A DNA stretch of 64,000 nt from a virus (taxonomy: Duplodnaviria; Heunggongvirae; Uroviricota; Caudoviricetes): positions 1 through 64,000 of the IMG/VR virus record IMGVR_UViG_3300017971_002799. One strand, given 5' to 3'. The notes beneath the pieces were generated by a model, which ran no database searches, was not told where the DNA came from, and saw only the letters and a program-made list of their open reading frames with translations. Shown here in pieces: positions 12,650 through 13,070 of the stretch (within the stretch, counting starts at the first letter, position 1; each line of letters opens with the position of its first letter). Both the position numbers and the translations under genes were made by a program.

Positions 12650-12674
12650 TGTTGGTTCCTCCTATACTTTTATA

Positions 12675-12872
12675 AAGAGAGATAGCAGGACTTGAACCTG
12701 CATGATGACATTTCCCATGCTCATTCTTTAGTCATCTAGGATCGAAGACTCGTAATGTGTCCACTTAGCAGCTTAAGACACCTATCTTCGCTTGTTCGGC
12801 TTGCTGCTCCTATTAGCCTCAAAGGGAATTGGGACCCCAATCCAGAGCGTCTACCATTTCGCCATATCTCTC
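12675..12872 (-). ncRNA. tRNA-like structured RNA candidate with large internal insertion (unclassified)
   Basis: On the minus strand, 5' AGAGAGATA (plus 12864-12872) is perfectly complementary to 3' TATCTCTCT (plus 12675-12683). The 3' partner sits immediately after a canonical T-arm, GCAGG-TTCAAGT-CCTGC (plus 12684-12700). A D-arm-like GCG-AAATGGTAGA-CGC follows the 5' strand. About 125 nt intervene. Confidence 0.3.
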
Positions 12873-13070
12873 TGTTTAGATTCAAACGGGGGTCGACGGG
12901 ACTTGCACCCGCACGCGTTGGACTATAGCTCCCCCGGCAAAGGGAAAACCGTCTACACCTTCAAGAGTCACTACTCCCTTGTTAGTGCCTAGGCCTCTCA
13001 CCCAGTGCGACCTCTCTACCTAGTGTTGGTAGGAGTACCTTGAATTTCAGTCACGACCCCGCTTATTTGT

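What the first reader, a model, noticed from the sequence alone, without database searches (positions are those of the whole stretch)
12650..13070. 420-nt structured non-coding gap in the flotillin operon containing a tRNA-shaped RNA with a ~125-nt insertion
On the minus strand, 9 bp (AGAGAGATA / TATCTCTCT) pair across ~190 nt. The 3' strand sits immediately after a canonical T-arm (GCAGG-TTCAAGT-CCTGC), with an anticodon-stem-like GATGAC/GTCATC helix just before it. The 5' strand is followed by a D-arm-like GCG-AAATGGTAGA-CGC. The remainder of the gap has GC-rich Y-shaped helices (CGGGGG...CCCCCG). The architecture resembles a tRNA or tmRNA with a large insertion, sited between the flotillin gene and the membrane/NfeD genes.
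Basis: seen in the sequence. Interest (0 to 1): 0.55.

Follow-up and report, generated by a model that had tools for sequence, protein, structure and literature searches.

The report
Phage tRNA-like gene beside conserved RNA
The 420-base gap after a phage flotillin gene holds two separate non-coding RNAs, a conserved structured RNA of unknown type and a recently inserted tRNA-derived gene with about 110 extra bases and no usable anticodon arm, which is moderately interesting but has no shown function.

Summary
The described features are real, but the gap is two modules, not one RNA.

**E2 (12871..12677, minus strand)**
- This is the tRNA-shaped RNA. It scores 30.3 bits on Rfam tRNA, just above the curated cut-off of 29.
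- The acceptor stem, Leu-type D arm and T arm are intact.
- The anticodon region is broken and about 110 nt are extra.
- It has no features of a group I intron, an archaeal-type (BHB) intron or a tmRNA.
- The whole element is missing from the closest relative (flanking proteins 65-85% identical), so it is a lineage-specific indel.

**E1 (13060..12889, minus strand)**
- This is the "GC-rich" half of the gap: an independent, roughly 172-nt, six-helix RNA.
- It is conserved in that relative, with 12 compensatory pair changes and fully invariant junction blocks.
- It matches no Rfam family.

**Other insert-bearing tRNA.** A second one, Leu(UAA) with a 40-nt insert, lies at 23883-24000.

**Best reading (confidence 0.38).** E1 is a cis-acting intercistronic RNA of the flotillin / NfeD-like operon. 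E2 is a non-decoding tRNA-like element, probably cut by RNase P and RNase Z.

**Rivals.** A dead pseudogene (0.28), or a tRNA spliced by an unknown route as in Lak megaphages (0.2).

No homologues of E2 were found, so its function remains inference.

The parts
12889..13060 (-). E1: conserved, roughly 172-nt, six-helix structured RNA closed by a 7-bp helix. It belongs to no known family.
   Evidence: It aligns with L016/L017/L018. There are 53 predicted pairs, 93% of cells paired, and 12 pairs changed on both sides against 0-3 in slid controls. No Rfam hit at E<=10.
13054..13060 (-). E1 closing helix P1, 5' strand: GGGGUCG.
   Evidence: It pairs with 12889-12895. The relative has GGGACUG/CAGUCCC, which is three compensatory pairs.
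12889..12895 (-). E1 closing helix P1, 3' strand: CGACCCC.
13034..13053 (-). E1 invariant junction block: UGACUGAAAUUCAAGGUACU.
   Evidence: 100% identical in a relative whose flanking genes are 71-78% identical at the DNA level.
13002..13013 (-). E1 invariant block: AGGUCGCACUGG.
12964..12979 (-). E1 invariant hairpin tip: AGGGAGU-AGUG-ACUCU.
12896..12912 (-). E1 3' hairpin (5 bp with a 7-nt loop) that abuts P1 directly. It looks like a T arm but is not one.
   Evidence: The stem covaries. The loop is UGCAAGU here and GGAAGGU in the relative, so it is not a T loop.
12872..12888 (-). 17-nt spacer between E1 and E2.
12677..12871 (-). E2: tRNA-derived gene of 195 nt, about 110 nt longer than a class II tRNA. 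It is absent from the relative.
   Evidence: Rfam RF00005, 30.3 bits. ARAGORN calls it only with introns allowed. Absent in L016-L018.
12865..12871 (-). E2 acceptor stem, 5' strand: AGAGAUA. The pairing extends 2 bp further, to 12873.
12847..12862 (-). E2 D arm: GCG-AAAUGGUAGA-CGC, Leu type.
   Evidence: The 18 nt UGGCGAAAUGGUAGACGC are identical to tRNA-Leu genes of a huge phage, L007.
12829..12845 (-). E2 degenerate anticodon arm: CUGGA-UUGGGGU-CCCAA. Only 3 of 5 stem pairs form; the loop has U33, GGG and G37. It can refold as a 7-bp hairpin with a tetraloop (12843-12825).
   Evidence: Collinear with the L007 tRNA-Leu. Rfam marks all five stem pairs as non-standard. The deletion scan keeps this loop in the best forms.
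12706..12816 (-). E2 extra segment of about 110 nt. It includes a possible AGCAGC/GCUGCU and GUGUC/GACAC pseudoknot and the GAUGAC/GUCAUC helix (12736-12731 / 12709-12704).
   Evidence: Read from the sequence. There is no covariation data, no Rfam hit and no similar sequence anywhere searched.
12685..12701 (-). E2 T arm: GCAGG-UUCAAGU-CCUGC.
   Evidence: The 17 nt are identical to the T arms of L007 tRNA-Ser genes.
12677..12684 (-). E2 acceptor stem, 3' strand UAUCUCU, plus discriminator C. No CCA is encoded (UUU follows).
12650..12671 (-). 22-nt translation leader AAAAGUAUAGGAGGAACCAACA of the downstream gene. An identical copy lies before the flotillin start (14597-14618).
   Evidence: (family D6).
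13071..14597 (-). Flotillin (SPFH/Band 7) gene upstream of the gap.
   Evidence: Pfam PF01145. The closest cellular homologues are from Phycisphaerae / Planctomycetota.
12269..12649 (-). 126-aa membrane protein gene downstream of the gap.
   Evidence: An 85%-identical homologue, P0122, anchors the comparison.
11704..12213 (-). 169-aa NfeD-like flotillin partner gene.
   Evidence: 30% identical (E 7e-18) to the protein encoded just before flotillin in planctomycete-like contigs. The Pfam NfeD hit is below threshold.

Best explanation
The gap contains two independent, co-transcribed non-coding modules in the flotillin -> membrane protein -> NfeD-like operon of a phage. The flotillin's affinities suggest the phage infects a planctomycete.

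**Shown**
- E1 (13060..12889) is a conserved multi-helix RNA under selection for both structure and sequence.
- E2 (12871..12677) derives from a class II (Leu-type) tRNA gene. It keeps a perfect acceptor / D / T 'top half', has lost a proper anticodon arm, carries about 110 extra nt, and is present only in this lineage.

**Inferred**
- As encoded, E2 cannot decode.
- Its intact acceptor-T minihelix and elbow make it a substrate for RNase P at its 5' end and for RNase Z after C12677 (no CCA is encoded).
- It would therefore act as a tRNA-like punctuation element or stable tRNA-scaffolded RNA. Cutting would separate the flotillin/E1 RNA from the downstream mRNA, whose leader starts 5 nt later.
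- E1 acts in cis as an intercistronic regulatory or processing RNA for the flotillin partner genes.
For: **E2 is tRNA-derived**
- Rfam tRNA 30.3 bits against a cut-off of 29.
- The D-arm and T-arm sequences are identical to real phage class II tRNAs.
- The acceptor pairing is a perfect 9 bp.

**The bottom half is not functional as encoded**
- Only 3 of 5 anticodon-stem pairs form, and Rfam flags all five as non-standard.
- Default ARAGORN fails to call it.
- No reading of the insert restores a clean anticodon arm.
- All recognisable defects lie in the anticodon and variable region. The roughly 50 core positions show none, which argues against uniform decay.

**The gap is modular**
- The relative L016-L018 has E1 only.

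**E1 is real**
- 12 compensatory pairs against 0-3 in slid controls, 93% of cells paired, and many G-U pairs that fit only the minus strand.
- Blocks of 21, 12 and 16 nt are invariant while the flanking genes are 71-78% identical in DNA.

**Context**
- Both modules share strand and operon with the flanking genes, in a genome with very few gaps.
- Other flotillin-carrying phage contigs (L005, L006, L014) carry a different conserved structured RNA at the same position, before their NfeD-like gene.
Against: - No transcript, cleavage or expression data exist.
- No homologue of E2 was found, so selection on it is untested.
- Folding energies are not better than shuffled sequence.
- The relative does without E2, so any processing role is dispensable.
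- Inserting E2 moves E1 from about 12 nt to about 230 nt from the ribosome-binding site. That argues against a simple role for E1 in masking that site and leaves its mechanism open.
- E1 is known from only two lineages.
Confidence: 0.38

Rival explanations
1. E2 is a recently disrupted, non-functional tRNA pseudogene. A class II tRNA gene took a roughly 110-nt insertion or rearrangement and is decaying, carried along in the intergenic region.
For: - It is absent from the closest relative, so it is dispensable.
- The anticodon stem has two mismatches.
- The body (Leu type) and the anticodon loop (Pro type, GGG with G37) do not match each other.
- No CCA is encoded, although the phage's two other tRNA genes encode it.
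- The insert shows no structure beyond chance.
- It only just passes the Rfam cut-off.
Against: - The acceptor (9 bp), D arm, T arm and tertiary-contact bases are all intact, with damage confined to the bottom half.
- The genome is otherwise tightly packed.
- A second insert-bearing tRNA gene in the same genome also keeps a perfect top half. Two independent accidents of this kind would be unexpected.
Confidence: 0.28
2. E2 is a true intron-containing tRNA with a Pro-type anticodon (GGG or UGG, with G37). The extra segment is removed by an unknown pathway that is neither group I nor BHB, like the 'enigmatic' introns of megaphage tRNAs.
For: - Lak megaphage tRNA genes carry unexplained introns that are recognised only when introns are allowed in the search (bioRxiv 10.1101/356790).
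- The same genome has a tRNA-Leu-like gene at 23883-24000. Removing 40 nt from it leaves a textbook loop U-U-UAA-A-G.
- The putative anticodons fit the phage's commonest codons: CCT is 49% of Pro codons and TTA is the top Leu codon.
- In-silico deletions of E2 reach 114% of the ARAGORN threshold, against 115-120% for real tRNAs.
Against: - No single excision gives a clean 5-bp anticodon stem. Options are 3 of 5 pairs, or 5 pairs with a bulged U and no nucleotide 26.
- The insert is too short for group I and gives no Rfam hit.
- No BHB motif restores a tRNA.
- No RNA ligase or splicing endonuclease was seen among 107 window proteins.
- No intron-less allele was found to define the boundaries.
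Confidence: 0.2
3. E2, alone or together with E1, is a tmRNA or a permuted (two-piece) tmRNA.
For: - Weak partial hit to the Rfam tmRNA_permuted model across the E1 3' hairpin and the E2 D arm: 11 bits, E = 7.
- A possible pseudoknot lies in the insert.
- A short frame GCU AAU AGG ... AGA UAG can be read from the sequence.
Against: - The cut-off is 47 bits, and ARAGORN's tmRNA search finds nothing.
- The acceptor stem has A3-U70 in E2 and G3-C70 in E1, not G3-U70.
- E2 has a full D arm, unlike tmRNA.
- The candidate tag ends in KRR, not a hydrophobic degron.
- The E1 closing helix is proven by covariation to pair with its own 5' strand.
Confidence: 0.02
4. The whole 420 nt is one structured RNA, or the tRNA likeness is chance.
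For: The minimum-energy fold of the whole gap is one set of nested domains.
Against: - The relative has E1 without E2.
- The Rfam E-value is 0.0003 for the region.
- 17- to 18-nt runs are identical to real tRNA arms.
Confidence: 0.03

Closest known systems
Insert-bearing ('enigmatic intron') tRNA genes of Lak megaphages and other huge phages (Devoto et al. 2019; bioRxiv 10.1101/356790)
   Same: - A phage tRNA gene much longer than normal.
- Missed by bacterial-mode tRNA finders and recognised only when introns are allowed.
- The insert has no known intron class.
- More than one such gene occurs per genome.
   Different: - This is a phage contig of about 88 kb, not a megaphage.
- The E2 insert is not at a definable anticodon-loop position.
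- No allele without the insert and no conserved copy of the insert was found.
- The anticodon arm itself is degenerate.
tRNA-like processing signals: plant mitochondrial t-elements and tRNA punctuation (PMC1920247)
   Same: - A tRNA-like structure with an intact acceptor/T half lies between cistrons on the coding strand.
- RNase P and RNase Z cleavage there would define mRNA ends.
   Different: - No ends have been mapped here.
- t-elements are usually smaller and lack a perfect D arm.
- The setting is a phage operon in a bacterium.
Bacterial tRNA genes with group I introns, e.g. tRNA-Leu(UAA) of cyanobacteria and Patescibacteria tRNAs (PMC3984707, PMC13011429)
   Same: A bacterial-type tRNA gene interrupted by extra sequence. 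The neighbouring gene at 23883 is even a Leu(UAA) type.
   Different: - The inserts are 40 nt and about 110 nt. From my own knowledge, known group I introns are about 200 nt or more.
- There is no Intron_gpI hit.
- The insert positions differ from the classic U34/A35 site.
tmRNA
   Same: An acceptor stem plus T arm enclosing a large non-tRNA domain.
   Different: - No G3-U70 pair.
- A full D arm is present.
- No credible tag frame.
- No model hit.
Bacterial and phage Y-RNA-like YrlA RNAs that mimic tRNA (PMC4201824)
   Same: A non-decoding RNA with tRNA-like D and T arms, also known from phages.
   Different: - In YrlA the RNA ends lie at the anticodon-stem side, so the T arm precedes the D arm (from my own knowledge of the family). 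E2 has the normal tRNA order with free acceptor ends.
- No Ro60/Rsr (TROVE) family appeared among the matches listed for the window proteins (which shows 25 of 30 families).
Riboswitch-like or intercistronic leader RNAs (comparison for E1)
   Same: A multi-helix junction closed by a P1 helix, with invariant junction nucleotides and covarying stems, placed just upstream of the next gene's ribosome-binding site in the relative (12 nt away).
   Different: - No Rfam family matches.
- No ligand or expression platform can be identified.
- In the window phage, E2 separates E1 from the ribosome-binding site by about 230 nt.

Membership tests
tRNA (Rfam RF00005) | Score at or above the curated cut-off | tested here: met
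   30.3 bits against 29. This is marginal because of the large insert penalty.
tRNA (Rfam RF00005) | 7-bp acceptor stem, D arm with A14/G18G19, and T arm with G53-C61 and a UUCRANY loop | tested here: met
   AGAGAUA/UAUCUCU, GCG-AAAUGGUAGA-CGC and GCAGG-UUCAAGU-CCUGC.
tRNA (Rfam RF00005) | A contiguous 5-bp anticodon stem with a 7-nt loop | tested here: not met
   CUGGA-UUGGGGU-CCCAA forms 3 of 5 pairs. Rfam marks the stem as non-standard and default ARAGORN finds no gene.
tRNA (Rfam RF00005) | Mature CCA end and aminoacylation | not testable with these tools
   No CCA is encoded (C73 then UUU). The two other tRNA genes in the window do encode CCA.
tRNA gene with group I intron | Group I catalytic core (P3-P9), usually 200 nt or more | tested here: not met
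   No Intron_gpI hit at E<=10. The extra sequence is only about 95-125 nt.
tRNA gene with archaeal/eukaryal-type intron | A bulge-helix-bulge motif at the exon-intron junctions whose removal restores a cloverleaf | tested here: not met
   My own scan found only loose, chance-level motifs, and none restores an anticodon arm. The flanking genes look bacterial: AGGAGG ribosome-binding sites and a Planctomycetota-like flotillin.
tmRNA | G3-U70 alanine identity pair in the acceptor stem | tested here: not met
   E2 has A3-U70 and E1 has G3-C70.
tmRNA | Match to tmRNA models, and a tag reading frame | tested here: not met
   ARAGORN's tmRNA search finds nothing. The tmRNA_permuted hit is 11 bits against a cut-off of 47. 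The only short frame ends in KRR.
Megaphage-type insert-bearing tRNA genes | An oversized tRNA gene detected only when introns are allowed | tested here: met
   A second case lies at 23883-24000.
Megaphage-type insert-bearing tRNA genes | Alleles with and without the insert that define the excision point, or an insert conserved across genomes | tested here: inconclusive
   The only relative lacks the whole gene. No other homologue was found.
tRNA-like processing element (t-element type) | Sits between cistrons on the sense strand, with an intact acceptor-T minihelix | tested here: met
tRNA-like processing element (t-element type) | Mapped RNase P and RNase Z cleavage at its borders | not testable with these tools
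   This needs RNA end mapping.
Any Rfam family (for E1) | A covariance-model match | tested here: not met
   Nothing at E<=10 in the window region or in L016/L017, apart from the 11-bit tmRNA_permuted partial hit.
Structured functional RNA in general (for E1) | Base pairs maintained by compensatory changes | tested here: met
   12 pairs changed on both sides against 0-3 in slid controls. No shuffle out of 500 reached the observed value. Only two independent lineages are available.

The most novel reading that the evidence does not exclude
This phage's oversized tRNA genes (E2 and the Leu(UAA) gene at 23883-24000) are matured by a tRNA splicing or processing route not yet described in bacteria, neither group I nor BHB. 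Separately, E1 is the founding member of a new cis-regulatory or catalytic RNA class attached to phage-borne flotillin / NfeD modules.
Probability: 0.15. Interest if true: 0.75.

Novelty: new variant of a known kind. Interest (0 to 1): 0.42.

Why it matters
- **tRNA inserts.** Oversized tRNA genes in phages are a reported but unexplained oddity. This case lies outside megaphages, with two such genes in one genome. It gives a compact system for asking whether the inserts are spliced, kept, or used as processing signals.
- **E1.** It is an unclassified RNA with good comparative support, in an operon for membrane-organising proteins (flotillin and its NfeD-like partner). A different conserved RNA at the same position in other flotillin-carrying phage contigs hints that RNA-level control of this gene pair recurs.
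- **Annotation.** Default tRNA finders miss E2 and the Leu gene, so phage tRNA inventories are undercounted.

Tried and rejected
**Readings tested and rejected**
- tmRNA and permuted tmRNA.
- Group I intron or any other Rfam family.
- Archaeal BHB intron, with my own scan.
- ZTP-riboswitch likeness of GGGUCGUGACUG: no Rfam hit, and the relative reads GGGACUGUGACUG.
- Group I 'S element' likeness of CUAUAGUCC in E1: not conserved in the relative.

**Searches for homologues that found nothing useful**
- blastn against 50,697 phage records: no match.
- Exact and gapped pattern scans of viral, metagenome and genome collections:
  - One search gave only a false positive from adjacent tRNA-Leu genes.
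  - Searches gave nothing.
  - Searches returned L020, the same contig as L017 (already known); the other five hits lie inside coding sequence (read as ispE and mgtE) and are chance matches.
- The source contig itself is not in those collections.
- Contexts of flotillin homologues: the RNA is not tied to flotillin in general.
- A covariance model of E1 found no paralogue.
- Literature search for the E1 blocks found nothing.
- The protein search for the small ORF next to the tRNA cluster, and the contig look-up for the window's last ORF (aimed at the rest of the contig), found nothing.

**Judged to be chance**
- A 16-of-17 complementarity between E1 and a gene at 30729-30745 (family D8). It is not in the conserved part of E1.

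Full report
**Setting**

The window is a densely packed phage-like genome segment. It encodes a family A DNA polymerase fused to a UDG domain, a protein-primed family B polymerase, ribonucleotide reductase, helicases and 7-deazaguanine synthesis genes. It lies on an 87.8-kb contig.

Genes around the finding all run on the minus strand:
- Flotillin (SPFH/Band 7), 13071-14597.
- The 420-nt gap.
- A 126-aa membrane protein, 12269-12649.
- A 169-aa protein, 11704-12213.

The 169-aa protein is 30% identical (E 7e-18) to the protein encoded just before flotillin in planctomycete-like cellular contigs. It gives a sub-threshold NfeD hit. The flotillin's closest cellular relatives are from Phycisphaerae / Planctomycetota. 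A greedy ORF map shows that gaps over 250 nt are rare, so 420 non-coding bases stand out.

**Checking the observation**

- 9-bp pairing, 12873-12865 with 12684-12676.
- T arm, 12701-12685.
- D arm, 12862-12847.
- GATGAC/GTCATC helix, 12736-12731 with 12709-12704.

The Rfam tRNA model matches 12871..12677 at 30.3 bits (cut-off 29). E is 0.027 for the window and 0.0003 for the region, and no other family reaches E<=10 except an 11-bit partial hit to permuted tmRNA.

ARAGORN finds nothing there by default. It calls the gene once introns are allowed. With that setting it made only three calls in the window and no spurious call in the other fetched loci.

Folding energies are not better than shuffles. 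The z-score is -0.79 for the gap and -0.51 for the tRNA-like part. The evidence therefore rests on the tRNA model and on comparison, not on thermodynamics.

**The gap is two modules**

The downstream membrane protein has one homologue in 5.8 billion proteins, at 85% identity. It lies on three short contigs from three different samples (L016-L018). Their flotillin is 65% identical to the window's.

In those contigs the gap is only 228 nt. It aligns with the upstream half of the window gap and then runs straight into the ribosome-binding site. The tRNA-shaped RNA, with about 15 nt on each side, is simply absent.

I call the shared part E1 (13060..12889) and the tRNA-shaped part E2 (12871..12677).

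**E1**

Structure on the four sequences (three distinct, two lineages):
- RNAalifold predicts six main helices, closed by a 7-bp helix.
- 93% of cells are paired.
- 12 pairs have changed on both sides, against 0-3 when partners are slid by 1-3 columns. No shuffle out of 500 reached the observed values.
- Three of those 12 pairs, in helix 7, are only U-G pairs in the window and count for less.

- The closing helix is GGGGUCG/CGACCCC here and GGGACUG/CAGUCCC in the relative.
- The many G-U pairs fit only the minus strand.
- The 3' hairpin abuts the closing helix like a T arm, and low-stringency ARAGORN even calls a 'tRNA' there. Its loop is UGCAAGU in one lineage and GGAAGGU in the other, and there is no D arm, so E1 is not a tRNA.

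Conservation pattern:
- Three unpaired or apical blocks are invariant: UGACUGAAAUUCAAGGUACU, AGGUCGCACUGG and AGGGAGUAGUGACUCU.
- The flanking genes are only 71-78% identical in DNA, and E1 overall is 66% identical.
- This mix of invariant junctions and covarying stems is what a functional structured RNA looks like.

Searches:
- No Rfam family matches.
- A covariance model of E1 finds no second copy in the window or in any fetched locus.
- Pattern scans of the three public collections gave no new homologue. Apart from L020, the same contig as L017, the hits were chance matches inside coding sequence, read as ispE and mgtE.

**E2**

The intact parts:
- Its first 58 nt or so are collinear, position for position, with class II tRNA-Leu genes of a huge phage (L007). 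That covers the acceptor strand, U8, an identical 18-nt D-arm stretch, a 5+7+5 anticodon arm and a short variable arm.
- Its last 27 nt are a canonical T arm and the matching acceptor strand.

The defects:
- The anticodon arm CUGGA-UUGGGGU-CCCAA forms only three of five pairs. It can refold into a 7-bp tetraloop hairpin.
- About 110 nt of unrelated sequence lie before the T arm.

I tested three readings of where the extra sequence lies: after position 32, after position 37 (which needs a bulged U and no nucleotide 26), or between the variable arm and the T arm. None gives a clean tRNA.

In a systematic deletion scan, the best in-silico 'spliced' forms all keep the native loop (anticodon GGG, G37). 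They reach 114% of ARAGORN's threshold, while real tRNAs hold to 115-120%.

Other negatives:
- No bulge-helix-bulge motif restores a cloverleaf.
- The insert is too short for a group I intron and matches no Rfam family.
- For tmRNA there is no G3-U70 pair, no credible tag frame and no ARAGORN call.
- The insert resembles nothing else in the window, the fetched loci or the phage database.
- E2 encodes no CCA.

**A second case in the same genome**

A stretch of about 1.3 kb, mostly non-coding, holds a normal tRNA(CAU) at 23807-23881. Right after it, at 23883-24000, is a gene scoring 34.2 bits on the tRNA model.

ARAGORN reads that gene as tRNA-Leu(UAA) with a 40-nt insert after position 32. Its minimum-energy fold is a clean cloverleaf in which two hairpins replace the anticodon loop (z = -2.2). 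Removing the 40 nt leaves U-U-UAA-A-G. Both genes encode CCA.

So two of this window's three tRNA-type genes are oversized while keeping perfect top halves. Codon usage fits a decoding role for such genes. TTA is the commonest Leu codon (24%), CCT is 49% of Pro codons and ATA is 43% of Ile codons.

Oversized tRNA genes with 'enigmatic introns' were reported in Lak megaphages and suspected in another huge phage genome.

**What it most likely is**

Shown:
- E1 is a conserved structured RNA.
- E2 is a tRNA-derived, lineage-specific element that, as encoded, lacks a working anticodon arm.

Inferred:
- All visible damage in E2 is confined to the bottom half, while the RNase P / RNase Z / elbow-recognition half is perfect. 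I therefore favour a retained non-decoding tRNA-like element. It would be cut out of the operon transcript and so set the 3' end of the flotillin/E1 RNA and the 5' end of the downstream mRNA. Plant mitochondrial t-elements work this way.
- E1 would act in cis within the operon.
- I put this reading at 0.38.

Rivals:
- Dead pseudogene (0.28). E2 is dispensable in the relative, its body and anticodon types do not match, and it has no CCA.
- A genuinely spliced tRNA-Pro-like gene using an unknown route (0.2). This is supported mainly by analogy with the neighbouring Leu gene and the megaphage cases.
- tmRNA (0.02) and a single 420-nt RNA or chance (0.03) are essentially excluded.

**Comparison and novelty**

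E2 is closest to the oversized tRNA genes of megaphages. It differs in host genome size, in lacking a definable insert position and in having a degenerate anticodon arm.

E1 has no known relative. A different conserved structured RNA sits at the same place, between flotillin and the NfeD-like gene, in other flotillin-carrying phage contigs. This suggests the junction is a recurrent site of RNA elements.

I rate the whole as a new variant of a known kind, with moderate interest. The anatomy is solid. The function is inference, and comparative depth is only two lineages for E1 and none for E2.

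Noticed in passing
window 23883-24000 (+): A second oversized tRNA gene lies directly after tRNA(CAU) at 23807-23881. It scores 34.2 bits on Rfam tRNA. Both genes encode CCA.
   Followed up: partly
window 22851-23806 (+): Roughly 950 nt upstream of the tRNA pair have no convincing ORF and no Rfam hit. The stretch includes a degenerate tRNA-like end (...GCCGUGACCA at 23380-23389, with a possible partner CACGGC at 23259-23264). It may hold further unannotated RNAs.
   Followed up: partly
L005 6474-6600; L006 3044-3170; L014 2596-2715: A different conserved RNA of about 115 nt lies between flotillin and the NfeD-like gene in other phage-like contigs. 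Its consensus reads GGAUA..CG.ACCGUUA...CGGUUGGAGAA...GAGGG...CACCC.UUAUCC. The closing stem covaries, with 5 pairs changed on both sides. No Rfam hit for L005 or L006 (L014 was not scanned).
   Followed up: partly
window 12650-12671 and 14597-14618: An identical 22-nt leader AAAAGTATAGGAGGAACCAACA precedes both the flotillin gene and the membrane-protein gene, so flotillin, E1 and E2 are bracketed by a direct repeat. GTATAGGAGG recurs six times in the window as a leader motif.
   Followed up: partly
L003 6689-7798; L004 4602-5711: In another relative (flotillin 65% identical), the space downstream of flotillin holds a 57-aa ORF and a TnpB (IS605 OrfB / Cas12f-like) gene instead of an RNA element.
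   Followed up: no
window, several genes (coordinates not mapped individually): The window proteins match QueC, GTP cyclohydrolase I, PTPS (QueD-like) and a radical-SAM enzyme. This suggests 7-deazaguanine (preQ0-type) synthesis, as used by some phages to modify DNA.
   Followed up: no
window 40033-42414 and 44658-46391 (+): The same genome encodes a family A DNA polymerase with an N-terminal uracil-DNA-glycosylase-superfamily domain and a separate protein-primed-type family B polymerase (DNA_pol_B_2).
   Followed up: no
window 12957-12973 versus 30729-30745: The E1 RNA is complementary at 16 of 17 positions to the sense strand near the 5' end of the ORF at 30703-31074. The match lies in a part of E1 that is not conserved, and matches of this size are expected by chance.
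   Followed up: partly
window 10810-10862 and 11281-11333: A 53-nt direct repeat (79% identical) lies near the 3' ends of two adjacent ORFs (156 aa and 140 aa) downstream of the NfeD-like gene. Their C-terminal peptides are similar, which suggests a tandem gene duplication.
   Followed up: no
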